In this document: one piece after another, positions 1 through 9,687 of the stretch
How the letters are laid out: the number at the start of each line of letters is the position of its first letter
Numbering within the stretch: the first letter of the stretch is position 1
From: an uncultured bacterium
GTDB taxonomy: Bacteria; Abyssobacteria; SURF-5
Direction of reading: 5' to 3'
DNA length: 13,379 nucleotides
Assembly: GCA_964510165.1 (NCBI GenBank)
Contig: CAZEBC010000111.1
Span: 1-13,379, forward strand
Notes under the pieces: generated by a model
The model's input: the letters and a program-made list of their open reading frames with translations, nothing else
Databases searched by the model: none
Told to the model about the DNA's origin: nothing
Position numbers and translations under genes: made by a program

Positions 1-1715
1 ACATGGCCCGCTATTTCATGGATTTCTGCCAGGATGAATCGTGCGGCAAGTGCACGCCGTGCCGCATCGGCACAAAGCGAATGCTTCAAATCCTGCAGAG
101 AATCTGCAACGGCGAAGGGCAGGAGGATGACATCAAGCTGCTTGAAGAGCTGGCGGGCGACATCAAGGACACCGCTCTCTGCGGTCTCGGACAAACGGCG
201 CCCAACCCGGTCCTCAGCACGATTCGCTACTTCAGGAATGAATACGAGGCGCACATTCGCGACAAGCACTGCGCGGCCGCCGTCTGCTCGGCGCTCTTCA
301 AGAGTCCTTGTCAGCACACCTGTCCGGTCGAGATGGACATCCCCGCCTACATCGCCCTCATTCGCGCGGGCAGGATTGACGACGCATACCTTGTCCTCAA
401 ACGCACAAATCCGTTCCCCAGCGTATGCGGCAGGGTATGCGGGCATCCGTGTCAATCGAAATGCAGGCGCGGCCAGCTTGATGAACCGCTCGCGATCAAG
501 TTCCTGAAGCGTTACGTGGCCGACAACGCGAAGAGGCCCAAGGTCGAACCGATACCGGTGAGCCGAAAAGAACGTGTGGCCGTTGTCGGCGCCGGCCCGT
601 CAGGATTGACCGCTGCCCTTGAACTCAAAAAACGGGGATACGCGGTCACGGTCTTCGAAGAACTCCCACAGGCAGGCGGAATGCTGCGGTGGGGGATACC
701 GGCGTACCGGCTGCCGCGAGAAGTTCTCGACGCTGAAATCAATGATATCCTCGCTACCGGGGTGGAGCTCAGGACCAACACGCGCGTCGGCCGCGATGTG
801 AACTTTGCACAGCTTGAGCGCGAATTCGACATGATCTATCTCGCTGTCGGAGCGCATAAGAGCCTCGGGCTCGGAATCCCCGGAGAGGACACGGCGGGCG
901 TATTCGGCGCGGTTGAAATGCTCCGAAACCATAACCTGGATCGGCCGGTCCAGATCGGGAAGCGCGTGGCCGTCATCGGAGGGGGAAACTCCGCCGTTGA
1001 CGCGGCCCGCACGGCGATCCGGCTGGGCGCGGAAAGTGTAACCATCTACTATCGGCGTGAACGCAAGGACATGCCCGCCCAGGAAATCGAAATAAGGGCG
1101 GCCGAAGAGGAAGGCGTCAAGATTGAATACATGGTTGCGCCCGTCAGCGTGAAGGCACGTAACGGCAAGGTGTCCGAACTCGAGCTGACTCGGATGCAGT
1201 TGGGCCAGTTTGACCGCAGCGGGCGGAAGCGGCCTGAGCCGATAAAGGGATCGGAGTTCACAGTCCAGGTTGATACGGTTATTTGCGCTATCAGTCAGGA
1301 GGCGGACCTCGATTTCCTCAGCGGCGACCGCAACGTAGAAACTTCCCGCGGCAGGATAAGGGTCAACCGTGCTCTTCGCACCGCCAACCCGAAGGTCTGG
1401 GCGGGCGGAGACGCTATCACGGGACCAGCCATGGTGATTGACGCCATCAGGGCGGGCAGGGACGCGGCGCGTCGTATTGACGAGGCTATCCGCGAGGCGA
1501 ACGGCGAGAAGCCGTGGGTCGCCCCGACCGACGGCGCCATTGATATCCCGTTCGAGATCGACGAGGAACTCGTCGAGCGGCCTCAGGCGCGGATGCCCCA
1601 GGCGCGCGCAATCGAACGGCGAAAGGATTTCCGGGAAGTCGAGCTCGGTTACACGCTCAAACTCGCCGCCGAGGAAGCGCGGCGCTGCATGCGGTGTGAC
1701 ATGCAGGTCGAGTAG
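1..1715 (+). CDS. 5'-truncated NuoF/HydB-type NAD(H)-binding hydrogenase subunit fused to a GltD/NfnB-like FAD- and NAD(P)-binding Fe-S oxidoreductase
   Basis: The frame is open at the window edge, so ATG at 3 is probably internal. NuoF [4Fe-4S] motif ESCGKCTPCRIG...ALCGLGQTAPNP, then YEAHIRDKHCAAAVC as in HydB. This is followed by GltD-type PCQHTCP and NPFPSVCGRVCGHPCQSKCRR, FAD motif VVGAGPSG, GGMLRWGIPAYRLP, a second Rossmann motif VIGGGNSAVD, YYRR, WAGGD and C-terminal EARRCMRCD. Stop TAG ends at 1715. Confidence 0.92.
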   Translation, partial: MARYFMDFCQDESCGKCTPCRIGTKRMLQILQRICNGEGQEDDIKLLEELAGDIKDTALCGLGQTAPNPVLSTIRYFRNEYEAHIRDKHCAAAVCSALFKSPCQHTCPVEMDIPAYIALIRAGRIDDAYLVLKRTNPFPSVCGRVCGHPCQSKCRRGQLDEPLAIKFLKRYVADNAKRPKVEPIPVSRKERVAVVGAGPSGLTAALELKKRGYAVTVFEELPQAGGMLRWGIPAYRLPREVLDAEINDILATGVELRTNTRVGRDVNFAQLEREFDMIYLAVGAHKSLGLGIPGEDTAGVFGAVEMLRNHNLDRPVQIGKRVAVIGGGNSAVDAARTAIRLGAESVTIYYRRERKDMPAQEIEIRAAEEEGVKIEYMVAPVSVKARNGKVSELELTRMQLGQFDRSGRKRPEPIKGSEFTVQVDTVICAISQEADLDFLSGDRNVETSRGRIRVNRALRTANPKVWAGGDAITGPAMVIDAIRAGRDAARRIDEAIREANGEKPWVAPTDGAIDIPFEIDEELVERPQARMPQARAIERRKDFREVELGYTLKLAAEEARRCMRCDMQVE

Positions 1716-1744: not shown

Positions 1745-3472
1745 ATGGTCACCTTGATGATAGACAATCACAAGGCGGAAGTTCCGCAGGGAACGACCGT
1801 ACTCGACGCGGCGCGCTCGATCGGAATTCGCATCCCGACTCTCTGCGCGCTGCCCGAGATTAACCATACGCCCGGCGCATGCCGCGTGTGCGTGGTCGAG
1901 GTGGACCGCAGCCGCACCCTGGTAGCCTCCTGTGTGTATCCGGTGGCTGAGGGTATGAAGGTGAAGACGAATTCCGAGCGGGTGCGCCGGGCGCGCCGGA
2001 CCGTGGTCGAGTTTCTGTTATCCGACCATCCGGCCGACTGCAATATCTGTCAGAAACACGAACACTGCGAGCTTCAGGCGGTGGCCGAACTGGTCGGAGT
2101 TCGCACCATCAGGGTTCCACGCACCGTGTTCAACTCGCGTCATGTTGACGATTCATCCCCCTCGCTTGTGAGAGATTCCTCAAAATGCGTAAACTGCCTG
2201 AGGTGTGTGACCGTATGCGCGGAGGTGCAGGGGGTGAGTCTTTTGACGCCCGAGGGTCGCGGCTTTGATTCGAAAGTGGTGCCTGCGATGAGCGCGAATC
2301 TGGCGGATTCGGCGTGCACATACTGCGGCCAGTGCGCGGTCGTCTGCCCGACCGGCGCCATCATCGAGCACGACGATGTCGAAAAGGTGTTCGCCGCGTT
2401 GGAGGACCCCTCCAAACATGTGGTCGTGCAGGAAGCCCCGGCCATCCGGGCCACCCTCGGCGAGGAGTTCGGGTTGCCGCCCGGCACATTGGTCACCGGA
2501 AGGATGATCGCGGCGCTTCGGCGTCTTGGCTTTGACAGGGTGTTCGACACCAATTTCACCGCTGACCTGACTATTATCGAGGAAGGCAACGAACTGCTGA
2601 AGCGCGTGAAGACCGGCGGCACGCTGCCGATGATAACTTCGTGCAGCCCGGGCTGGATCAAGTTCATCGAACACTTCTATCCGTCGCTTCTCTCGAACCT
2701 CAGCACGTGCAAGTCTCCTCAGCAGATGTTCGGCGCATTGGCGAAGACGTATTATCCGCGACTCACCGGCATAGACCCGAAGGATATCTTTGTGGTGTCC
2801 GTCATGCCGTGCACCGCGAAGAAATTCGAAGCGTCCCGGCCCGAGATGAACTCTTCCGGCTATCGCGACGTGGACGCCGTGCTTACCACGCGGGAATTGG
2901 GACGCATGATACGCCAGGCAGGCATAGACTTCGTGAACCTGCCCGAAGAGCCGTTCGACCCTCCCATGGGACAGTACACGGGCGCAGGCACGATCTTCGG
3001 CGCCACCGGGGGAGTCATGGAGGCGGCGTTGCGGACCGTCCATGCGGTTGTCTGCGGAAAAAGCATGCCGAACCTCGACATAGCCCCGGTTCGCGGACTT
3101 GACGGCGTGAAGGAAGCCGCCATGCAGGTGGGCGAGCTGGGCGAGATTCGGGTTGCCGTTTCTCATGGTCTTGCAAACGCCCGAAAGCTCCTGGATAGGG
3201 TGATGGACGGGACGGCGGACTACCACTTCATCGAGATTATGGCCTGTCCCGGCGGATGTGTCGGCGGCGGCGGACAAACGCTCCCCGTCAGCAACGAAAA
3301 ACGCGCGCTTCGCGCACAGGCGCTGTATGTTGACGATGGCAAAGTCCAGCAATTCCGGCAATCGCACGAGAACCCGGCGGTCAAAGAACTCTACGAAAAA
3401 TTCCTCAAAGAACCGCTCGGCGAGATGTCGCACAAGTTGCTGCATACCCATTACGTGGAGCGCGGAGTATAA
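1745..3472 (+). CDS. hydA: Group A [FeFe]-hydrogenase catalytic subunit (multimeric, A3-like by context), 575 aa
   Basis: H-cluster motifs TSCSPGW, MPCTAKKFE and EIMACPGGCVGGGGQ. N-terminal [2Fe-2S] (IPTLC...GACRVC...ASC), His-ligated [4Fe-4S] (HPADCNICQKHEHC), and 2x[4Fe-4S] (CVNCLRCVTVC; CTYCGQCAVVCP). C-terminal SHENPAV...LLHTHY. SD AAGGAG precedes the ATG. Confidence 0.97.
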   Translation: MVTLMIDNHKAEVPQGTTVLDAARSIGIRIPTLCALPEINHTPGACRVCVVEVDRSRTLVASCVYPVAEGMKVKTNSERVRRARRTVVEFLLSDHPADCNICQKHEHCELQAVAELVGVRTIRVPRTVFNSRHVDDSSPSLVRDSSKCVNCLRCVTVCAEVQGVSLLTPEGRGFDSKVVPAMSANLADSACTYCGQCAVVCPTGAIIEHDDVEKVFAALEDPSKHVVVQEAPAIRATLGEEFGLPPGTLVTGRMIAALRRLGFDRVFDTNFTADLTIIEEGNELLKRVKTGGTLPMITSCSPGWIKFIEHFYPSLLSNLSTCKSPQQMFGALAKTYYPRLTGIDPKDIFVVSVMPCTAKKFEASRPEMNSSGYRDVDAVLTTRELGRMIRQAGIDFVNLPEEPFDPPMGQYTGAGTIFGATGGVMEAALRTVHAVVCGKSMPNLDIAPVRGLDGVKEAAMQVGELGEIRVAVSHGLANARKLLDRVMDGTADYHFIEIMACPGGCVGGGGQTLPVSNEKRALRAQALYVDDGKVQQFRQSHENPAVKELYEKFLKEPLGEMSHKLLHTHYVERGV

Positions 3473-3535
3473 GAGGGCGGCGCGAGGAACGCCCCGGAAG
3501 ACACCTGGGACGTGGGAATTCAGGGCAAGGTGGTA

Positions 3536-3542
3536 AAGGAGG
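3536..3542 (+). promoter_or_regulatory. Shine-Dalgarno site of the receiver gene
   Basis: AAGGAGG 5 nt upstream of ATG 3548. Confidence 0.8.
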
Positions 3543-3547
3543 CAAGC

Positions 3548-3955
3548 ATGGCGACCAACGGCGAAATACTCCTGGTGGATGATGACCGGGATATTCGAGA
3601 TTCTATTCGGATCATCTTGGAGAGGAACGGCTACAAGGTGAATACGGCCGCGAATGGCCGCGAGGCGCTCGCAGCGCTCAAGACCGGGCTCCCCGACCTC
3701 ATGATCCTCGACATCATGATGGCCACCGACACCGAAGGGTTTGACCTTGCGTATGAACTGAGGGGAAAGCCTGAGTTCGAGAACCTGCCGATCATAATCA
3801 TGACCAGTTTCCTCGAGAAGGTTCGAGACGAGGGCCCCGACAAGTTCCAGCATATCCTGGGCGAGGAATGGCCAGCGAAATGGTTGTTCGAAAAGCCGGT
3901 GGACTCTCAGAAACTGCTCGCCAAGATAAAGGCCATCCTGGCGGAAGATCGGTAA
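3548..3955 (+). CDS. Single-domain response regulator (receiver only), 135 aa
   Basis: ILLVDDD acidic pocket, PDLMILD(55)IMM phosphoacceptor, PIIIMT and EKP lysine. Start moved from 3512 to ATG 3548 because AAGGAGG (3536-3542) lies just upstream. No output domain. Confidence 0.93.
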   Translation: MATNGEILLVDDDRDIRDSIRIILERNGYKVNTAANGREALAALKTGLPDLMILDIMMATDTEGFDLAYELRGKPEFENLPIIIMTSFLEKVRDEGPDKFQHILGEEWPAKWLFEKPVDSQKLLAKIKAILAEDR

Positions 3956-4048: not shown

Positions 4049-5956
4049 ATGAGTCATGTGGCTGTGGATGAAGGGCTTCTCCACCTGCCCGAAGAAATCA
4101 ACAAACGCAAACGAATCATCCTGGGTGAGTTGAAAGAGCGCACCCTGTGGTTCGTGTTTCTTCGGTGGTGGGTTCCGCCGAGTATCGCTGCCGGAACTTT
4201 TCTGGCTCGCGCCATCGGAGTCGAGTTCTCGACGACGCCGGTTCTTATGGTCGCGGGCTTCATCCTGGCCTATAATGTGATGTTTCATTTCCAGAGCCGA
4301 TGGGTCCAACAGGAACTTGGATGGCAGCCCCAGTATATTCAACGATTCACGCACTGGCAGGTCGGGCTTGATTATGCGGCCATGTTTCTGCTCATCCATT
4401 TCACGGGAGGTGCGGCGAGCCCATTCATCTTCTTTTTCATTTTCCACATCATATTCGCGTCCATACTGCTGAAACCACGCACGGCTTACGGGTTCGCGAC
4501 GTTTGCGGCGGTCGGCATGGCCCTGATCTCGGCGGCGGAGTATCGGGGCTTGATCCCGCGCCATCCGGTCGTGTATCGCGGCGCCCTTGTTAACCTGACC
4601 GAATGCCCGGTTCACATGATGGCGAATCTGGGCTTCTTCACCACGTCGGTCTTCATAACGGCGTTCTCGACCACCGCCATTATGGTGATGCTCCGAAAAC
4701 GGATAGTGAGCCTTGCCGAACTCTCCGAGACTCTGACCAACCTCAACAACAGGCTCAACAGTCTCTATGTGATGACGCAGGCGATTCTCTCGACACGGCG
4801 CCTTGACCACGTGCTCAATATCGTCGTTAACGAGCTTGCGAATGTGATGAACGTGCAGGGAATCTCAATCAAACTTCTGAGCGAGGACGGCAAACAGCTC
4901 CGGTACGCCGCCGCGCACGGAATGCCTGACGGCTTGATTGCGGAAAGGACCATTGACGTTGACAAAAGCCCGCTGAACCGCCGCATCATCGAGGGCGAAC
5001 CGTTCGTCACCGGGCGCATAACGCAGGGGGAAATGTTTCAGTTTGGCGAGGACCTTGCCGCCGCCGACTTGCGGTCGGTCCTATTCGTTCCGCTCAGGGG
5101 CGAGGACCGCGTGATCGGGATATTGGGCGCCTATTGCAAGCTCGCTGACCGGTTTCGCGACGAGGAAGTGGCCTTCTTCCGACAAGCGGCCGGGCTTGTC
5201 GCCATCGCGCTTGAGAATGCCCGCGCATATGAAGCCGTGGAGAACCTCGTGCGAGAGAGGTCCTGGTTCATGATGCGGGTCGCGCACAACCTTCGCGCCC
5301 CGCTTTCGGCGACCGCGAGTATCCTCGACGTGGTCAGGAGCGGCTATCTCGGCGAATTGAACGACGAGCAAAGCGAATATTTGCGCAGGGTTGATCGCAG
5401 AACTCGTACAATGCTTCAGATTATCGAGGAACTTATGACGCTCGCAACCAACCGCGAGCAGAAACAGAAAATCACTCGTGCGCCAATCGACTTGACCGCG
5501 CTTACCCGACGCATTCGGCGCACGTTTCAGGATGAGGCCGCCAAGAGGGCAGTCGCCTTCCACGTAAGCCTGCCCGACGGAACGCCGGAAATCCAGGGTG
5601 ATTTTAAGATGGTCGAGCAGATGCTTGAAAATCTGGTCTCGAACGCCATCAAATATACGCCTGCCGGGGGAAGTGTAAACGTTGTGTTTTCACTCGCCAA
5701 TGACGGAATGGTCCGCATCGAGGTCAGTGACAACGGGATAGGCATTCCGAAGCGAGACATGCCGCGCCTGTTCACCGAGTTTTTCCGCGCGGAAAACGCG
5801 CGGGCTATCGATGAGCAGGGAACTGGCCTTGGCTTGGCCATTGTGAAGGAGATTGTTGACAAGCATGGAGGGCGAATCCTTGTGGAAAGCGAAGAAGGTC
5901 TGGGCACCATCTTCGTCATTCACCTTCCTGTCGCTCACAAGGAGAATGCGTCATGA
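4049..5956 (+). CDS. Membrane-bound sensor histidine kinase (about 6 TM helices, GAF, HisKA, HATPase_c), 635 aa
   Basis: About six hydrophobic segments in the first ~215 aa. GAF-like region (SIKLLSEDGKQL...SVLFVPLRGEDRVIGIL...LVAIALENARAY). H-box VAHNLRAPL, N-box ENLVSNAIKYT, G1 VSDNGIGIP, F-box LFTEFFR, G2 GTGLGLAIVK. The stop overlaps the hydG start (ATGA, 5953-5956). Confidence 0.93.
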   Translation: MSHVAVDEGLLHLPEEINKRKRIILGELKERTLWFVFLRWWVPPSIAAGTFLARAIGVEFSTTPVLMVAGFILAYNVMFHFQSRWVQQELGWQPQYIQRFTHWQVGLDYAAMFLLIHFTGGAASPFIFFFIFHIIFASILLKPRTAYGFATFAAVGMALISAAEYRGLIPRHPVVYRGALVNLTECPVHMMANLGFFTTSVFITAFSTTAIMVMLRKRIVSLAELSETLTNLNNRLNSLYVMTQAILSTRRLDHVLNIVVNELANVMNVQGISIKLLSEDGKQLRYAAAHGMPDGLIAERTIDVDKSPLNRRIIEGEPFVTGRITQGEMFQFGEDLAAADLRSVLFVPLRGEDRVIGILGAYCKLADRFRDEEVAFFRQAAGLVAIALENARAYEAVENLVRERSWFMMRVAHNLRAPLSATASILDVVRSGYLGELNDEQSEYLRRVDRRTRTMLQIIEELMTLATNREQKQKITRAPIDLTALTRRIRRTFQDEAAKRAVAFHVSLPDGTPEIQGDFKMVEQMLENLVSNAIKYTPAGGSVNVVFSLANDGMVRIEVSDNGIGIPKRDMPRLFTEFFRAENARAIDEQGTGLGLAIVKEIVDKHGGRILVESEEGLGTIFVIHLPVAHKENAS

Positions 5957-7359
5957 AAACGGTTGCAGAAGTCAACAACAATTCCTTTATCGACGAGGCT
6001 TTGATTGTTGACTGCCTCGAAGCGGCCGAACAGGGCGGAGTCCAACGCGCCCGAGAGGTTATCGAGAAGGCGCTTGAACTGCGCGGGCTGGACCTTGAGG
6101 AAGTCGCGGTATTGCTCCAATGCGGCGATCCGGACGTGCGCGAGGAGATGTTCCACGCCGCGCGAGCTGTCAAGGAATCCATCTACGGCAAGCGATTGGT
6201 TCTCTTTGCGCCGCTTTACATCTCCAACCTGTGCCGAAACGACTGCCTCTATTGCGCCTTTCGGGTGAGCAACAAGAACGTGCGGCGCCGCGCCTTGTCC
6301 CAGGAGGAAATCGCCCGTGAAGTTGGCGCCCTCGAGGCCATGGGACACAAGCGAATCCTGCTCGTGGCGGGAGAGGGCTACCCGGAAAGCGGCCTCGACT
6401 ATATTTTCGATTCGGTCGCCACCATCTACGGCACACGGGAAGGCCGCGGCGAGATCCGACGGGTGAACGTGAACATTGCCCCGCTCACCCTCGATGAATT
6501 TCGACAGCTTAAGGCCTGCAAGATCGGCACATACCAGGTGTTCCAGGAGACCTATCATTTGGGGACGTACCGGCAAATGCACGTGAGCGGTCCCAAGACC
6601 GACTACCATTGGCGGCTCACCGCCGTCGGTCGGGCATTCGAGGCCGGCATCAATGATGTCGGCATCGGCGTCCTTTTCGGCCTGTTCGATTACAGATTCG
6701 AGATACTGGCATTGCTTCAGCACATTCGTCACCTTGAGCGCGAATACGGGGTGGGACCCCATACGATAAGCGTTCCTCGACTGGAACCCGCCGAAGGCTC
6801 CGTGGTCGCGTCGCATCCGCCGTATCCCGTCTCTGACGAGGACTTCAAGAGGATTGTCGCAATCCTTCGGCTCGCGGTTCCGTATACGGGCATGATCATG
6901 AGCACGCGCGAGACGCCGGAGATGCGAGCCGCAACGTTCGCGCTTGGCGTCTCCCAGCTCAGCGCGGCCAGCCGCACGAATCCCGGCGGCTATATGGAAG
7001 GGGAGCCTTCCACTGCGCAATTCCAGCTTGGCGACCATCGAAGCGTTGACGAGGTGATAAGCGACCTGGTCCGGATGGATTATATTCCATCGTTCTGCAC
7101 CGCCTGTTACAGGCTTGGACGCACGGGCGAGGGTTTCATGGACCTCGCGAAACCGGGCTTGATTAAACGCTTCTGTCTGCCGAACGCGATCCTCACGTTC
7201 AAGGAGTACCTGGAGGATTACGCGAGCGCCGAGACTCGCAAGGCAGGCCTGCGTGCGATCGAGAGAAATCTGCAGGACATCCCGTCCGAGGAAAGGCAAG
7301 CCGAAGCCAGGCGCCGCCTGATGAGAATCGAGCAAGGCGAGCGCGATCTATATTTCTGA
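5953..7359 (+). CDS. hydG: [FeFe]-hydrogenase H-cluster radical SAM maturase HydG
   Basis: YGKRLVLFAPLYISNLCRNDCLYC (CxxxCxxC), GEIRRVNVN, FQETYH, GPHTISVPRLEPA, and C-terminal PSFCTACYR...KRFC (Cx2Cx22C auxiliary cluster, which separates HydG from ThiH). Confidence 0.96.
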   Translation: MKTVAEVNNNSFIDEALIVDCLEAAEQGGVQRAREVIEKALELRGLDLEEVAVLLQCGDPDVREEMFHAARAVKESIYGKRLVLFAPLYISNLCRNDCLYCAFRVSNKNVRRRALSQEEIAREVGALEAMGHKRILLVAGEGYPESGLDYIFDSVATIYGTREGRGEIRRVNVNIAPLTLDEFRQLKACKIGTYQVFQETYHLGTYRQMHVSGPKTDYHWRLTAVGRAFEAGINDVGIGVLFGLFDYRFEILALLQHIRHLEREYGVGPHTISVPRLEPAEGSVVASHPPYPVSDEDFKRIVAILRLAVPYTGMIMSTRETPEMRAATFALGVSQLSAASRTNPGGYMEGEPSTAQFQLGDHRSVDEVISDLVRMDYIPSFCTACYRLGRTGEGFMDLAKPGLIKRFCLPNAILTFKEYLEDYASAETRKAGLRAIERNLQDIPSEERQAEARRRLMRIEQGERDLYF

Positions 7360-7379
7360 GATCATGAGAAGGTACGACA

Positions 7380-8693
7380 ATGGGTCAACGCGCACCAAAA
7401 GGGATAAGACTTCACATCGGGTTGTTCGGCAGGCGCAACGTCGGCAAGTCGAGCCTGCTGAACGCGATCACCCGCCAACAAGTGTCCATCGTCTCGGACC
7501 AGGCGGGCACAACGACCGACCCGGTCGAAAAGCCTATGGAATTGCTCCCGCTCGGGCCGGTGCTTTTCATTGATACCGCCGGGATAGACGACGTGGGCGC
7601 CCTCGGGGAATTGCGCGTTCAGAAAACGCGACAAGTCTTTGACCGCACAGATGTCGGCGTGATCGTCAGCGAGCCGCAAAGTTGGGGCGCGTTCGAGGAG
7701 CAGCTCCTCCACCGACTGACGTCACAGAACATCCCCGTGATCGTCGTGTTCAACAAGATTGACCTCATGCCGCCAGACCCCGAAATGGTCGCTCGCCTGA
7801 AATCGCAGAACATTCGCATTGTGGAGACCGCCGCTTCCTTGAATATGGGAATGCTCGACTTCCGCCAGGCGCTCCTTGACGCGGCGCCGCCCGAGTTCCT
7901 GAGTAATCCCGCGATCCTTGCGGACCTGGTTGGCCCCGGAGAGATGGCGGTGCTCGTGGTCCCGATCGACAAGGAAGCGCCCAAGGGACGGTTGATCCTT
8001 CCACAAGTCCAGGCGATCCGCGACCTGCTTGACAACGACGCCTTCTGCACCGTAGTAAAGGAGCGTGAGCTTCAGACCGCGCTCGACAGGTTAACTGAAC
8101 CGCCGAAGCTTGTGGTGACCGATTCGCAGGTGTTCCTGAAAGTGGCCGCCGACACGCCGCGCGACATCAAGCTGACCTCTTTCTCCATCCTGTATGCAAG
8201 GTACAAGGGAGACCTGCTCGAGCAGGTCAGCGGCACACTGGCAATCGAACGCCTCAGGCCGGGCGACCGGATTCTCATTGCGGAAGCGTGCTCTCATCAC
8301 CCCATCGCAGAAGATATCGGGCGCGTGAAAATACCCCGGTGGCTGACTCAGTATGTGGGCGGAAAGCTGGAGTTCACAACGATTCAGGGACATGACTTTC
8401 CTGAAGACCTGTTCAAATACAGTCTTGTGGTTCACTGCGGGGCCTGCATGATAAACCGACGCGAGATGCTGACCAGGTTGATGCGATGTCGGGAATTGAG
8501 CGTGCCCATTACGAATTATGGACTCGTTATCGCGTATTCGTTGGACATTTTCGAGCGCGCCTTGGAGCCGTTCCCGGCCGCGCTCGAGTTCTATCGCAAA
8601 CAAAGAAAAGAGCATGATGCATTATCACGAAATACTCGCCTGGCTCAAGGAGAAAGACACAGGCAGGCTGCTGGACCTCTGGCGGCGGGCTGA
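7380..8693 (+). CDS. hydF: [FeFe]-hydrogenase H-cluster maturation GTPase HydF
   Basis: G1 GRRNVGKSS, GTTTDPV, G3 DTAG, G4 NKID, APKGRLILPQVQ, VVTDSQ, and Fe-S ligands EACSHH...HCGACM. The 3' end runs 80 nt into hydE. Confidence 0.96.
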   Translation: MGQRAPKGIRLHIGLFGRRNVGKSSLLNAITRQQVSIVSDQAGTTTDPVEKPMELLPLGPVLFIDTAGIDDVGALGELRVQKTRQVFDRTDVGVIVSEPQSWGAFEEQLLHRLTSQNIPVIVVFNKIDLMPPDPEMVARLKSQNIRIVETAASLNMGMLDFRQALLDAAPPEFLSNPAILADLVGPGEMAVLVVPIDKEAPKGRLILPQVQAIRDLLDNDAFCTVVKERELQTALDRLTEPPKLVVTDSQVFLKVAADTPRDIKLTSFSILYARYKGDLLEQVSGTLAIERLRPGDRILIAEACSHHPIAEDIGRVKIPRWLTQYVGGKLEFTTIQGHDFPEDLFKYSLVVHCGACMINRREMLTRLMRCRELSVPITNYGLVIAYSLDIFERALEPFPAALEFYRKQRKEHDALSRNTRLAQGERHRQAAGPLAAG

Positions 8694-9687
8694 CGAGGTC
8701 AGGCGGCAATATGTCGGTGACCAGGTCCACCTGCGCGGACTGGTGGAAATCTCGAACCACTGCGTCCGCCAGTGCGGCTACTGCGGCCTGCGAGCCGGGA
8801 ACACGAATCTTGAGCGCTACCGAATGAGTGAGGCCGAAATCCTGGCCTGCGCCCACGAAACCCAAAGGCGCGGCTATGGCACGCTCGTCATTCAATCCGG
8901 CGAGGACTACGGCATCTCGGCTGACTGGCTCGCGGGAATCATTCGCCGGATCAAAAGTGAAACTCCTCTCGCCGTCACGCTCAGCATGGGAGAGCGGCCG
9001 GATAAGGACTTGGAGATGTGGCGATGGGCCGGAGCGGACCGTTATCTTCTTCGGTTCGAGACCTCCGACGCCGAACTCTACCGTCTCATCCATCCCTCGC
9101 TTCCGGGAAGCTTTGACCGCATAGCCGTTCTGCGCTCGCTCCGCTCGATGGGATACGAGATCGGAGGAGGCGTCATGGTGGGCATTCCCGGACAGACGTA
9201 CACAAGTCTGGCGAGCGACATCGAAGTCTTCTGCGAATTGGACCTCGATATGATCGGGGTTGGGCCATACATTCCACACCCGAATACTCCGCTCGGACGT
9301 GGCGAATGGAGGAGGGAAATTCCGGAGGGCGAACAGGTTCCCGCCACGGCGGAGATGACCTATAAGGTTCTGGCTCTCGCTCGCATCGCGTGTCCGGAAG
9401 CAAATATTCCGGCCACAACCGCACTGGCAACCGTCAATAAAGCCAACGGCCGGGAACTGGGCCTGATGCGCGGGGCGAATGTCATCATGCCGAACTTGAC
9501 CCCGCCTCAATATCGCGAGAAGTACGAGCTTTACCCCGGGAAGGTGTGCCTCAAGAGTGCGCCGCAGGAATGCCACCCCTGCCTGATTCGAACAATTCAG
9601 GCTTTGGGCCGGCTGCCCGGCCTGGGACCGGGCAGTCGGCGCCATCGCGTTCCGGAGCATTGCGGTTATGACGTAACCGGCTGCTGA
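8614..9687 (+). CDS. hydE: [FeFe]-hydrogenase H-cluster radical SAM maturase HydE
   Basis: VHLRGLVEISNHCVRQCGYC (CxxxCxxC), GADRYLLRFET, MVGIPGQT, DMIGVGPYIPHPNTP, NIPATTAL, GANVIMPN, YELYPGK and C-terminal Cx7Cx2C. The start is likely ATG 8614 or 8617 rather than 8518, because the upstream part of that ORF is a shadow of hydF. Confidence 0.93.
   Translation: MMHYHEILAWLKEKDTGRLLDLWRRADEVRRQYVGDQVHLRGLVEISNHCVRQCGYCGLRAGNTNLERYRMSEAEILACAHETQRRGYGTLVIQSGEDYGISADWLAGIIRRIKSETPLAVTLSMGERPDKDLEMWRWAGADRYLLRFETSDAELYRLIHPSLPGSFDRIAVLRSLRSMGYEIGGGVMVGIPGQTYTSLASDIEVFCELDLDMIGVGPYIPHPNTPLGRGEWRREIPEGEQVPATAEMTYKVLALARIACPEANIPATTALATVNKANGRELGLMRGANVIMPNLTPPQYREKYELYPGKVCLKSAPQECHPCLIRTIQALGRLPGLGPGSRRHRVPEHCGYDVTGC

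What the first reader, a model, noticed from the sequence alone, without database searches (positions are those of the whole stretch)
1..1715. HydB/NuoF subunit whose C-terminal ferredoxin domain is replaced by a GltD/NfnB-like NADP(H) flavoprotein
Seen: after the NuoF cluster motif and the HIRDKHCAAAVC segment (to ~287), the protein goes straight into a ~470-aa GltD-like module with FAD and second-nucleotide Rossmann motifs. Known: canonical bifurcating HydB ends in a 2x[4Fe-4S] ferredoxin-like domain at this point. GGGNxAxD (from 978) followed by YRR (1050-1058) is typical of NADP(H)-using GltD/NfnB/SudA proteins. Inference: this hydrogenase could carry two pyridine-nucleotide sites (FMN/NAD and FAD/NADP) and link H2, NADH and NADPH, as a hydrogenase-transhydrogenase hybrid rather than a classic NAD/ferredoxin HydABC. 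NuoF-GltD fusions occur in other anaerobe genomes but are, to my knowledge, poorly characterised.
Basis: partly seen in the sequence, partly recalled or inferred. Interest (0 to 1): 0.72.

Follow-up and report, generated by a model that had tools for sequence, protein, structure and literature searches.

The report
Hydrogenase flavoprotein with added NADPH module
The flavoprotein subunit of this bacterium's only iron-iron hydrogenase has an NADPH-binding module where the usual ferredoxin-reducing tail should be; the design is real and widespread, was noted from sequence in 2024, and has not been tested at the bench.

Summary
Window 3-1715 encodes the last 570 residues of a 1032-aa HydB/NuoF protein; its first 462 residues and a NuoE/HydC gene lie on contig C284. 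After the NuoF [4Fe-4S] domain and a His/Cys linker, the chain enters a complete GltD-type module (two [4Fe-4S] sites, FAD, GGGNxAxD...YRR NADPH site). A canonical HydB has a 2x[4Fe-4S] tail there. HydA (the genome's only [FeFe] catalytic subunit), a receiver protein, a GAF histidine kinase and HydG/F/E follow.

It is not new. Zheng & Huang 2024 (PMC11406978) described this as 'sub-type I BfuB' in the same phylum, and this scan has reported it on at least 8 other genomes.

- The module is the circularly permuted StnC/NfnA type. It carries the Lys of the non-bifurcating StnC FAD site, not the Glu of bifurcating NfnB.
- The visible 570 residues are colinear with SfrB, the NADPH subunit of NADP-dependent formate dehydrogenase.
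- An orthologous operon (L057) keeps the canonical tail.

My reading is a ferredoxin-independent hydrogenase linked to both NAD(H) and NADP(H). Whether the two nucleotides are obligately coupled is open. No biochemical study turned up in my searches.

The parts
1..1715 (+). 3' part of hydB (bfuB): residues 463-1032 of a 1032-aa NuoF-GltD fusion protein. Reading frame starts at nt 3; stop codon at 1713-1715.
   Evidence: ORF list and translation; Pfam domains; join with contig C284 gives 1032 aa, 0 gaps and 91% identity to P0002.
3..254 (+). NuoF C-terminal [4Fe-4S] (N3/B1) domain, with CxxCxxC at nt 42-62
   Evidence: PF10589 at residues 1-84, E 1.3e-37. Aligns to HydB/NfnB/StnB chains at their residues ~430-542. 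The cysteines are conserved in 110-120 of 121 relatives.
252..287 (+). His/Cys linker HIRDKHCAAAVC. By position it is the hinge that holds the B2/Zn site in solved Bfu enzymes; this mapping is inferred, not tested.
   Evidence: H84, C90 and C95 are invariant in 29 of 29 and 121 of 121 relatives. The canonical HydB of L057 shares the motif. [quoted passage not shown]
270..536 (+). Fer4_20 domain of the GltD module, with cysteines for two [4Fe-4S] clusters (CxxxCP at 309-326; CxxxCxxxCxxxC at 426-464)
   Evidence: PF14691 at residues 90-178. All six cysteines are conserved in 121 of 121.
507..509 (+). Lys169 (Lys631 of the full protein), which aligns with StnC Lys170, the non-Cys ligand of the FAD-proximal cluster
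   Evidence: Residue-by-residue alignments show Lys in 8oh5_C, 9bov_A and 9n5u_A but Glu in NfnB 4ylf_B and 5jca_L. The role of K170 comes from PMC10482914 section 9. Lys is found in 116 of 121 and Glu in 5 of 121 relatives; it is invariant in 29 of 29 HydA-linked loci.
573..1457 (+). FAD and NADP(H) Rossmann folds (GAGPSG at 588-605; GGGNSAVD at 978-1001; YRR at 1050-1058)
   Evidence: PF07992 at residues 191-485. Y/R/R are conserved in 118, 116 and 119 of 121. The same VT.xYRR.xxEMPA stretch occurs in the NADPH-using StnC and NfnA chains.
1599..1700 (+). C-terminal tail ending in CxxC (1686-1697). It is the permuted equivalent of the N-terminus of NfnB and supplies two more cluster cysteines.
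   Evidence: The tail aligns to residues 10-43 of 4ylf_B and 10-48 of 5jca_L, and to residues ~535-566 of StnC/NfnA chains. Both cysteines are conserved in 120 of 121.
1745..3472 (+). hydA (bfuA): [FeFe]-hydrogenase catalytic subunit, 575 aa, M3-type
   Evidence: Pfam domains Fer2_4, NADH-G_4Fe-4S_3, Fer4, Fe_hyd_lg_C (E 3.3e-101) and Fe_hyd_SSU. H-cluster motifs TSCSPGW, MPCTAKK and EIMACPGGCVGGGGQ are present. Best solved relatives are HydA chains at E ~1e-133. It is the only Fe_hyd_lg_C match in the genome.
3512..3955 (+). Single-domain receiver protein (147 aa), probably a regulatory partner of the enzyme
   Evidence: PF00072, E 2e-19. It is 74% identical over 140 aa to the receiver domain fused to the C-terminus of HydB-GltD in other lineages.
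4049..5956 (+). Membrane histidine kinase with GAF domain
   Evidence: Pfam domains PilS-like 6TM, GAF, HisKA and HATPase_c. It is conserved after hydA in most related loci.
5953..9687 (+). H-cluster maturase genes: hydG-like (5953-7359), hydF (7380-8693) and hydE-like (ORF 8518-9687; true start probably later)
   Evidence: Radical_SAM plus BATS; HydF dimer and tetramer domains; Radical_SAM.

Best explanation
This is the diaphorase (HydB/BfuB) subunit of a three-subunit [FeFe] hydrogenase encoded in the order hydC-hydB-hydA.

Shown:
- The protein keeps the whole NADH/FMN core of bifurcating HydB: the N-terminal thioredoxin-like [2Fe-2S] domain, the FMN fold, the B1 [4Fe-4S] cluster and the His/Cys hinge.
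- It lacks the C-terminal 2x[4Fe-4S] domain, which is where solved Bfu enzymes reduce ferredoxin.
- In that place, seven residues after the last hinge cysteine, a complete NADPH/FAD/2x[4Fe-4S] module begins.
- The module is of the StnC/NfnA/SfrB type.

Inferred:
- The FAD is a plain two-electron NADP(H) entry/exit site, not a bifurcating flavin.
- It is wired through its two clusters into the same iron-sulfur chain (B1 and the HydA clusters) that serves the FMN.
- The enzyme therefore exchanges electrons between H2 and both NAD(H) and NADP(H) without ferredoxin.
- NADPH-to-NAD+ transfer is possible as a side path.

Direction would follow H2 pressure. The potentials come from Table 1 of PMC9304861 and the arithmetic is mine. 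NADPH (about -380 mV) could drive H2 formation up to about 7 kPa; NADH (about -280 mV) only up to about 3 Pa. At higher H2 the enzyme would make NADPH and NADH.
For: Architecture:
- Pfam domains.
- The joined frame is 1032 aa, gap-free against P0002.
- 118 of the 120 best longer homologues carry the NuoF part and the GltD module in that order.

Missing ferredoxin domain:
- HydB chains extend ~55-90 residues beyond the aligned part.
- The ortholog in L057 has that tail.
- Ferredoxin is reduced at the BfuB C-terminal domain (passages of PMC12018979).
- HydB lacking B3/B4 in S. wolfei is non-bifurcating, as cited in PMC11406978.

Non-bifurcating NADPH module:
- It aligns gap-free with Csac NfnA 9bov_A (E 6.8e-123), 9n5u_A and StnC 8oh5_C, including the permuted tail. 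Bifurcating NfnB chains need insertions.
- Lys169 aligns with StnC K170. It is Lys in 116 of 121 relatives and in 29 of 29 HydA-linked loci.

Plain-module precedent:
- The whole 570-aa window protein is colinear (42% identity) with an SfrB-like protein of the same genome that has no FMN domain.
- SfrB2 is the beta subunit of the NADPH-dependent formate dehydrogenase of Moorella (passage of PMC13040438).

Association with HydA:
- HydA follows in 29 of 38 loci and NuoE lies upstream in 43 of 49.
- HydA here has intact H-cluster motifs and is the only one in a genome estimated 97% complete.
Against: No activity, cofactor content or structure exists for any member.

The NuoE/HydC subunit, the N-terminal [2Fe-2S] domain and the hinge are all retained. 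These are the parts of the Bfu bifurcation machinery, which fits an obligately coupled mechanism at least as well.

NAD versus NADP preference of the FMN site cannot be read from sequence.

The position of the module relative to B1, C1 and the HydA clusters is unknown.

The Arg that discriminates bifurcating from non-bifurcating FAD sites is conserved in both kinds and differs only in geometry. The 'non-bifurcating' call therefore rests on Lys169, the indel pattern and overall similarity.
Confidence: 0.45

Rival explanations
1. Obligately coupled (Bfu-type) enzyme in which NADP(H) replaces ferredoxin on the low-potential branch. Electrons from H2 reach the B1-FMN-C1 site. One pair goes to NAD+; the other goes via the mobile HydC cluster into the GltD clusters and FAD to NADP+. 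In reverse, NADH and NADPH are oxidised together to give 2 H2.
For: The module starts 7 residues after the hinge, exactly where the ferredoxin-reducing B3/B4 domain starts in canonical HydB.

HydC/NuoE is kept in 43 of 49 loci. The N-terminal [2Fe-2S] cysteines (119 of 121) and the hinge His/Cys (121 of 121) are conserved.

In solved Nfn-Bfu the C1 domain swings between FMN and B3/B4.

From my arithmetic on the potentials, the mean of -280 and -380 mV would raise the H2 ceiling for NADH re-oxidation from ~3 Pa to ~150 Pa. That would be useful to the syntrophs that carry this protein (Smithella and Syntrophaceae loci).

An earlier scan note (e1-2380258) proposed the same idea.
Against: NADPH is only ~100 mV below NADH, so the energetic gain is small compared with ferredoxin.

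The same N3-linker-GltD unit works in SfrB-type proteins without FMN or NuoE. That suggests a direct wire to the catalytic subunit, which would short-circuit any coupling.

Non-bifurcating S. wolfei HydABC is also described as a three-subunit HydABC (cited).
Confidence: 0.3
2. Still a ferredoxin-dependent bifurcating hydrogenase. The two [4Fe-4S] clusters of the GltD module dock ferredoxin, as the NfnB clusters do, and the FAD/NADPH site is an extra inlet or is itself a second bifurcating flavin, as postulated by Zheng & Huang.
For: In NfnB-type proteins the homologous clusters lead to ferredoxin (background in PMC10482914 and PMC12018979).

Zheng & Huang postulate a second bifurcating FAD centre.

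5 of 121 relatives have Glu at the Lys169 position, as NfnB does.
Against: The window protein has Lys, as in StnC, whose FAD was shown by mutagenesis and structure not to bifurcate.

The module shares the indel pattern and the permutation of StnC/NfnA, not NfnB.

No NfnA/NfnS-type partner gene is in the operon.
Confidence: 0.15
3. The fused flavoprotein does not serve this HydA. It would be an orphan NADH/NADPH transhydrogenase module or serve another catalytic subunit, or the hydrogenase would be a sensor rather than an enzyme.
For: 7 of 38 related loci have no catalytic gene downstream and 2 of 38 have a formate-dehydrogenase-like gene instead.

The operon contains a receiver protein and a histidine kinase.
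Against: Here hydA starts 30 nt after the hydB stop codon, behind an AAAGGAG site. It has all three H-cluster motifs, is followed by hydG/F/E and is the genome's only [FeFe] catalytic subunit. The same order holds in 29 of 38 loci.
Confidence: 0.05

Closest known systems
'Sub-type I' BfuABC group A3 [FeFe]-hydrogenases of Hydrogenedentota (Zheng & Huang 2024, PMC11406978; section 7 read in full)
   Same: Same architecture: the B3/B4 domain of BfuB is replaced by a DPD_II (Fer4_20) domain plus an FAD/NAD(P) domain. Same phylum: the best homologues are named Candidatus Abyssubacteria/Abyssobacteria. Same M3a-type HydA with Ser in motif P1.
   Different: No difference in kind; this is another member. 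The paper postulates a second bifurcating FAD centre. The Lys169, permutation and SfrB comparisons made here point instead to a non-bifurcating NADPH site.
Electron-bifurcating HydABC / NiFe-HydABCSL (PDB 7q4v, 8a6t, 7p5h, 7t2r; organism names recalled: A. woodii, T. kivui, T. maritima, A. mobile)
   Same: HydC, the HydB core (E 1e-167 to 3e-204) and HydA (E ~1e-133) are close homologues, in the same gene order.
   Different: Those HydB chains end in a 2x[4Fe-4S] ferredoxin-reducing domain. Here that domain is absent and a 470-aa NADPH/FAD module stands in its place.
StnABC of Sporomusa ovata and NfnABC (Nfn-Bfu) of Caldicellulosiruptor and Thermococcus (PDB 8oh5, 9bov, 9n5u; PMC10482914 sections 8-9 read; PMC11829005 abstract; PMC12018979 passages)
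   Same: The GltD module is the same permuted type, gap-free over ~465 residues (E 7e-103 to 7e-123). It has the StnC-K170 lysine and the YRR NADPH site. The enzymes share the same BfuBC-type core.
   Different: There the module is inserted into the A subunit after its [2Fe-2S] domain (residues 102-565 of StnC). The A subunit has no H-cluster and BfuB keeps B3/B4 for ferredoxin. Here the module hangs on BfuB, BfuA is a true hydrogenase and B3/B4 is gone.
SfrB of Geobacter SfrAB, and the beta subunit (SfrB2) of the NADPH-dependent formate dehydrogenase of Moorella thermoacetica (passages of PMC7483475 and PMC13040438)
   Same: The NuoF N3-cluster domain, linker, GltD module and CxxC tail are in the same order. 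An SfrB-like protein of the same genome is 42% identical over all 570 window residues.
   Different: SfrB proteins lack the FMN/NADH fold and the N-terminal [2Fe-2S] domain, and have no NuoE partner. Their catalytic partner is a molybdopterin protein, not HydA.
Non-bifurcating NADH-dependent Hyd1ABC of Syntrophomonas wolfei (as cited in PMC11406978; the original papers appeared only in a search listing)
   Same: A HydABC whose HydB lacks the B3/B4 clusters and works without ferredoxin at low H2.
   Different: It has nothing in place of the lost domain and has no NADPH site.
NfnAB / NfnSL transhydrogenase (PDB 4ylf, 5jca)
   Same: Homologous FAD/NADPH/2x[4Fe-4S] fold (E 2e-100 and 8e-93).
   Different: NfnB has Glu at the Lys169 position, carries its CxxC segment at the N-terminus and has two insertions relative to the window protein. 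Its FAD is the bifurcation site.
HydDB [FeFe] group A2, 'glutamate synthase-linked' (PMC5037454 passages), and the archaeal hybrid hydrogenase whose HydB has a glutamate-synthase domain (PMC11216029 passages)
   Same: A GltD-type flavoprotein is associated with an [FeFe] hydrogenase.
   Different: HydDB calls an enzyme A2 only if the neighbouring protein has GltD but not NuoF. A neighbour carrying NuoF, as this flavoprotein does, is the A3 criterion, so the hybrid nature is hidden. The archaeal case is a different complex, with a [NiFe] partner.

Membership tests
BfuABC / group A3 [FeFe]-hydrogenase (HydABC) | BfuA with H-cluster motifs P1, P2 and P3 | tested here: met
   TSCSPGW, MPCTAKK and EIMACPGGCVGGGGQ are present. 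The same P1 variant occurs in solved HydA1 7q4v_A.
BfuABC / group A3 [FeFe]-hydrogenase (HydABC) | BfuB core: N-terminal thioredoxin-like domain, FMN/NADH fold and B1 [4Fe-4S] | tested here: met
   PF01257, PF01512 and PF10589 match. The alignment to 7t2r_B is gap-free (E 2.8e-204).
BfuABC / group A3 [FeFe]-hydrogenase (HydABC) | BfuC (NuoE-like [2Fe-2S] subunit) encoded alongside | tested here: met
   A 173-aa ORF lies directly upstream on C284, PF01257 E 8.9e-53.
BfuABC / group A3 [FeFe]-hydrogenase (HydABC) | BfuB C-terminal 2x[4Fe-4S] (B3/B4) ferredoxin-reducing domain | tested here: not met
   No Fer4 dicluster domain follows the hinge. The alignment to HydB chains ends at their residue ~542. 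The ortholog in L057 has the domain.
BfuABC / group A3 [FeFe]-hydrogenase (HydABC) | NAD+- and ferredoxin-dependent electron bifurcation with H2 | not testable with these tools
   Needs enzyme assays.
Sub-type I BfuB (Zheng & Huang 2024) | B3/B4 domain replaced by a DPD_II (Fer4_20) domain plus a C-terminal FAD/NAD(P) domain, in a bfuC-B-A cluster | tested here: met
   Fer4_20 at 90-178 and Pyr_redox_2 at 191-485 follow NADH_4Fe-4S. The gene order is NuoE, fusion, HydA.
StnC / NfnA (Bfu-attached) GltD module | Lys at the StnC K170 position (ligand of the FAD-proximal cluster), strictly conserved in StnC | tested here: met
   Lys169 aligns with it. The role is described.
StnC / NfnA (Bfu-attached) GltD module | Module inserted in the NuoG-like A subunit after its N-terminal [2Fe-2S] domain | tested here: not met
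   Here it is fused to the C-terminus of the NuoF-like B subunit. The inserted form was seen in 23 of 136 complete modules among library representatives.
NfnB / NfnL (bifurcating NADPH flavoprotein) | Glu ligand on the proximal cluster; N-terminal CxxC segment | tested here: not met
   The window protein has Lys instead of Glu, and the CxxC segment is at the C-terminus.
NfnB / NfnL (bifurcating NADPH flavoprotein) | Arg hydrogen-bonded to N5 of FAD | not testable with these tools
   The Arg is conserved (GGMLRWGIP; 115 of 121), but the distinction lies in geometry.
SfrB / NADP-dependent FDH beta subunit | NADH_4Fe-4S, Fer4_20, Pyr_redox_2 and CxxC tail in one chain | tested here: met
   The window protein is colinear at 42% identity with the SfrB-like protein of contig C37.
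SfrB / NADP-dependent FDH beta subunit | No FMN/NADH fold; partner is a molybdopterin (SfrA/FdhA) protein | tested here: not met
   A full NuoF FMN fold lies upstream in the same chain and the partner is HydA.

The most novel reading that the evidence does not exclude
NADPH takes the place of reduced ferredoxin in a Bfu-type confurcating hydrogenase. The enzyme would oxidise NADH and NADPH together, in fixed 1:1 stoichiometry, to make 2 H2 (or the reverse), using the B1-FMN-C1 site with the GltD module on the former ferredoxin branch. The activity may be switched by a phosphorylatable receiver protein that is covalently fused to the flavoprotein in other lineages. That would be a new third-substrate logic for the Bfu family, and a way for syntrophs to re-oxidise NADH at roughly 50-fold higher H2 pressure without ferredoxin.
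Probability: 0.3. Interest if true: 0.75.

Novelty: new member of a known kind. Interest (0 to 1): 0.4.

Why it matters
Bifurcating hydrogenases set the hydrogen thresholds of anaerobic food webs, and the role of the HydB C-terminal domain is central to the current debate on how the Bfu family bifurcates. A natural, widespread variant in which that domain is swapped for an NADPH module is a ready-made test case. If it is a plain dual-nucleotide hydrogenase, it gives a direct H2-to-NADPH route of interest for biocatalysis. If it is coupled, it shows that the low-potential branch can end in a nucleotide instead of ferredoxin.

For this window the value is modest. It is one more member of an architecture already published from sequence and repeatedly found by this scan. 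The useful additions are the StnC-type lysine, the permutation, the SfrB relationship, the canonical ortholog and the receiver-domain fusion.

Tried and rejected
- Complex prediction. I sent the GltD module (residues 100-570, alignment A1) with the N-terminal FeS part of HydA (residues 1-215, alignment A2) to ask whether the module docks on HydA as it does within StnC. The verdict was 'no answer', score 0.00. This is no evidence either way.
- Careful tree. An IQ-TREE run of 136 GltD modules did not finish in time, so I used FastTree instead. Deep branches are weak and I draw only cautious conclusions from it.
- Assembly artefact. I considered and rejected it. The NuoF-GltD junction lies inside the window in one open frame, recurs in 49 loci, and 118 of 120 homologues are full fusions.
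- Shifted stop codon. I asked whether the fusion arose from a StnC-like gene by moving a stop codon, and rejected this. In StnC-like proteins the module follows the [2Fe-2S] domain of the A subunit; here it precedes HydA's [2Fe-2S] domain.
- Damaged active site. I suspected that motif P1 TSCSPGW (Ser for the second Cys of TSCCP) marks a damaged site, and rejected this. Solved HydA1 7q4v_A has the same motif, and the 2024 paper reports Ser as common.
- Literature for biochemistry. Searches found no assay of any NuoF-GltD fusion enzyme. Subscription journals and supplementary files were not searchable. The supplementary gene tables of PMC11406978 and PMC9304861 could list this or sister genomes.
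- Papers checked and found irrelevant: PMC5736913, PMC10327494, PMC12918512, PMC9430772, PMC6037941 and PMC9012536.
- Not attempted: structure prediction, fold search, and expression data from sequencing runs. The tools return no coordinates, so inter-cluster distances could not be measured.
Full report
**What is in the window.** The window is the first 13,379 bases of contig C111 of a 4.17-Mb, 325-contig genome estimated 97% complete. Frame 3 is open from base 3 to the stop at 1713-1715 and gives 570 residues. Pfam finds three domains in it:
- the NuoF iron-sulfur domain NADH_4Fe-4S at residues 1-84 (E 1.3e-37);
- Fer4_20, the two-cluster domain of dihydropyrimidine dehydrogenase and GltD, at 90-178 (E 5.8e-24);
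- Pyr_redox_2 at 191-485 (E 7.8e-33).

The rest of the window continues the operon:
- a 575-aa [FeFe]-hydrogenase HydA starts thirty bases after the stop, at 1745-3472;
- a 147-aa receiver protein (3512-3955);
- a membrane GAF histidine kinase (4049-5956);
- HydG-, HydF- and HydE-like maturases (5953-9687);
- on the other strand, an ADP-forming acetyl-CoA synthetase-like gene and a receiver-GGDEF gene.

**The missing upstream part.** Contig C284 ends with 55 bases identical to window 1-55. It carries a 173-aa NuoE/HydC gene, and directly after it a 479-aa open frame with three domains: a thioredoxin-like [2Fe-2S] domain, the Complex1_51K FMN fold (E 4e-49) and an SLBB domain. That frame runs off the contig end in ...DMARYFMDFCQDESCGKC, which are the first residues of the window protein.

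Joined in a script, the frame is 1032 aa. It aligns over all 1032 positions with no gap to a 1032-aa protein of a Candidatus Abyssubacteria MAG at 91% identity, and to three further proteins at 70-84%.

The N-terminal part aligns gap-free to the B subunit of a solved bifurcating NiFe hydrogenase (7t2r_B, E 2.8e-204) and to HydB 7q4v_B (E 8.2e-185).

**The ferredoxin-type tail really is replaced.** Solved HydB, NfnB and StnB chains of 584-630 residues align to window residues 2-99 at their positions ~430-573 and then continue for another ~55-90 residues.

Among 51 related loci from species-representative genomes, one (L057) has the same operon type: NuoE, HydB, HydA, receiver, kinase, HydG. Its HydB is 647 aa and 68% identical to the fusion's homologue P0002 up to ...AHIRDK.C....C.AL. 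It then runs into a CxxCxxC...CxxCxxC ferredoxin tail instead of the GltD module.

In the window protein the first cluster cysteine of the module lies seven residues after the last hinge cysteine. [quoted passage not shown] My mapping of the His/Cys motif to that Zn site rests on position only.

**What kind of GltD module it is.** Its best solved relatives are not glutamate synthase or NfnB. They are the NADPH modules built into the A subunits of Bfu-type transhydrogenases:
- 9bov_A (E 6.8e-123). This code occurs in the Caldicellulosiruptor NfnABC paper.
- 9n5u_A, 'NfnA' (2e-113).
- 8oh5_C (7e-103). It is 1172 aa, the length the Stn structure paper gives for StnC, whose GltD part is residues 102-565.

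These alignments run almost gap-free from window residue ~101 to 566. NfnB 4ylf_B and NfnI-L 5jca_L need two insertions.

The last ~35 residues (...RRKDFREVELGY...RRCMRCD) align to the N-terminus of NfnB chains (residues 10-43 and 10-48), but to the end of the module in StnC/NfnA. The module is therefore a circular permutant of NfnB/GltD, and the terminal CxxC completes its set of eight cluster cysteines. All eight are conserved in 120-121 of 121 family members.

The Stn paper (section 9 read) shows two things:
- StnC's FAD does not bifurcate.
- The FAD-proximal cluster has a Lys ligand (K170), strictly conserved in StnC, where NfnB has Glu.

Window Lys169 aligns with K170. The three Bfu-type chains have Lys and the two NfnB chains have Glu. 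Lys is found in 116 of 121 relatives, with Glu in 5, and in 29 of 29 HydA-linked loci. The YRR stretch is shared with the NADPH-using StnC and NfnA chains.

**A second relationship: SfrB.** Contig C37 of the same genome encodes a 653-aa protein with NADH_4Fe-4S, Fer4_20 and Pyr_redox_2 but no FMN fold. It is followed by an 862-aa NuoG/molybdopterin protein and a NuoJ gene. It is 42% identical to the window protein over all 570 residues, including the linker, the Lys and the CxxC tail.

Proteins of this SfrB type are the NADPH-binding partners of Geobacter SfrAB (passage in PMC7483475). One is also the beta subunit of the NADPH-dependent formate dehydrogenase of Moorella thermoacetica (passage in PMC13040438). 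The visible part of the window protein is thus a complete SfrB-like unit, with a full NuoF head added in front.

**Distribution and partners.**
- The longer-protein search listed 120 best hits of 1002-1243 aa. 118 of these carry the NuoF part and the module in that order.
- Named hits come from Abyssubacteria, Poribacteria, Syntrophaceae, Desulfobacterales, Spirochaetota and Nitrospirota MAGs.
- Of 11 genomes held for the window's phylum, 6 (including this one) have a copy at 85% identity or more across the junction. Three have a second copy at 54-58%.
- In 51 loci from genome contigs, 49 have the module, 48 have the NuoF part contiguous and 43 have NuoE upstream.
- Among the 38 loci with a complete module and at least 1800 nt downstream, 29 have a full HydA next and 2 (L042, L051) have a formate-dehydrogenase-like gene split by an in-frame stop. 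The other 7 have neither: mostly Smithella, plus L044, whose record is labelled Myxococcales.
- In the 50%-identity library, 5,368 proteins match at E 1e-30 or better. Of the best 150, 10 are NuoF fusions, 28 are SfrB-like and 112 have other contexts.
- A FastTree of 136 complete modules puts the window with two other fusions (support 98), next to the clade inserted in A subunits (support 88, weak). The 'fused' label needs at least four changes, which hints at repeated fusion or module exchange. I treat this as a lead only.

**The hydrogenase itself.** HydA has the M3 layout and the motifs TSCSPGW, MPCTAKK and EIMACPGGCVGGGGQ. The Ser in the first motif is also present in solved HydA1 7q4v_A and is reported as common in this phylum. 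It is the only Fe_hyd_lg_C match in the genome. The genome has four NuoF-like genes. One, on C216, is a canonical 634-aa BfuB with the ferredoxin tail, next to NuoE and a molybdopterin FdhA-like gene.

**How it most likely works.**

Shown:
- two nucleotide/flavin sites in one chain;
- no B3/B4 domain;
- a StnC/SfrB-type module in its place;
- conserved linkage to HydC and HydA.

Inferred:
- NADP(H) binds at the FAD, which acts as a plain two-electron/one-electron converter.
- Its two clusters feed the chain that also serves FMN and the H-cluster.

I consider a ferredoxin-independent, dual NAD(H)/NADP(H) hydrogenase most likely (0.45). The SfrB precedent shows the same N3-linker-GltD unit working without FMN or NuoE. 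A HydB without B3/B4 is also reported as non-bifurcating in S. wolfei (as cited).

The main rival (0.30) keeps the Bfu mechanism and lets NADP+ take ferredoxin's place. It is favoured by the retention of HydC, the N-terminal [2Fe-2S] domain and the hinge, and by the module sitting exactly where B3/B4 sat.

Using the potentials in Table 1 of PMC9304861 (NADH -280, NADPH -380, H2 -414 mV), my own Nernst arithmetic gives these H2 ceilings:
- about 3 Pa for NADH alone;
- about 7 kPa for NADPH alone;
- about 150 Pa for the coupled pair.

A ferredoxin-dependent reading (0.15) cannot be excluded.

**Comparison with the literature and earlier scan notes.** Zheng & Huang 2024 describe the same replacement as 'sub-type I BfuB' in Hydrogenedentota. 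[quoted passage not shown]

A Cell 2024 paper models an archaeal HydB with a glutamate-synthase domain. HydDB rules would assign this enzyme to A3 because NuoF is present, which hides the GltD part.

My searches found no assay of any such enzyme.

This scan had already reported the fusion on at least eight other genomes, with HydA, selenocysteine FDH, [NiFe] hydrogenase or no catalytic partner. It had also reported SfrB-like modules in complex I operons.

**Verdict.** This is a new member of a known, biochemically untested kind, of moderate interest.

Noticed in passing
window 3512-3955 (+): The stand-alone 147-aa receiver protein between hydA and the histidine kinase is 74% identical over 140 aa to a receiver domain covalently fused to the C-terminus of HydB-GltD in other lineages. 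Examples are P0047 (residues 1080-1164 of 1207) and P0097. 19 of the 120 listed homologues carry PF00072, and 23 of 120 have more than 20 residues after the module. By gene-fusion logic the receiver may bind and regulate the flavoprotein directly.
   Followed up: partly
G000 contig C37 = L059 1725-6822 (-): An SfrB-like protein (653 aa; NuoF N3 domain plus GltD module, no FMN fold) is followed by an SfrA/NuoG-like molybdopterin protein (862 aa) and a NuoJ gene. This is the 'NADPH-type input module next to complex I genes' layout that earlier scan notes describe.
   Followed up: partly
G000 contig C216 = L007 800-6061 (+): The same genome also has a canonical Bfu core: NuoE (197 aa) and a 634-aa BfuB with the 2x[4Fe-4S] tail, next to an FdhA-like molybdopterin gene. 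So canonical and GltD-substituted flavoproteins coexist with different catalytic partners.
   Followed up: partly
L057 4528-8223: An orthologous operon (NuoE, HydB, HydA, receiver, kinase, HydG) has a 647-aa HydB that keeps the canonical ferredoxin tail and is 68% identical to the fusion up to the hinge. It is a natural comparison pair for domain-swap experiments.
   Followed up: yes
window 2636-2656 (+): HydA motif P1 reads TSCSPGW (Ser instead of the second Cys of TSCCP). The same variant occurs in solved HydA1 7q4v_A, so it is not a defect.
   Followed up: yes
L036-L039, L041, L046 (Smithella-like); L044 (record labelled Myxococcales): These loci have NuoE plus the NuoF-GltD fusion but no HydA or FdhA gene within ~2-6 kb downstream. 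In L036, L037 and L039 (and the cut L038) a non-coding-looking gap of ~1.5 kb is followed by membrane-protein genes that look like formate/oxalate transporters. That reading comes from their N-terminal sequences and is not tested.
   Followed up: no
L042 7792-10485; L051 7835-10528: Downstream of the fusion, two adjacent ORFs (354 + 538 aa) together resemble a formate dehydrogenase alpha subunit. The break follows ...NNVDHCARL and probably marks a selenocysteine codon; the codon was not checked.
   Followed up: no
family alignment of P0002-P0121: 5 of 121 fusion proteins have Glu instead of Lys at the StnC-K170 position, the state found in bifurcating NfnB. These might behave differently.
   Followed up: no
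GltD-module tree: On a FastTree of 136 modules the NuoF-fused architecture is not one clade; at least 4 changes are forced by well-supported branches. Some fusions sit inside SfrB-like clades, which hints at repeated fusion or module exchange. Deep support is weak.
   Followed up: partly
window 8518-8693 (+): The longest hydE-like ORF overlaps the end of hydF by 176 nt. The real hydE start is probably a later start codon.
   Followed up: no
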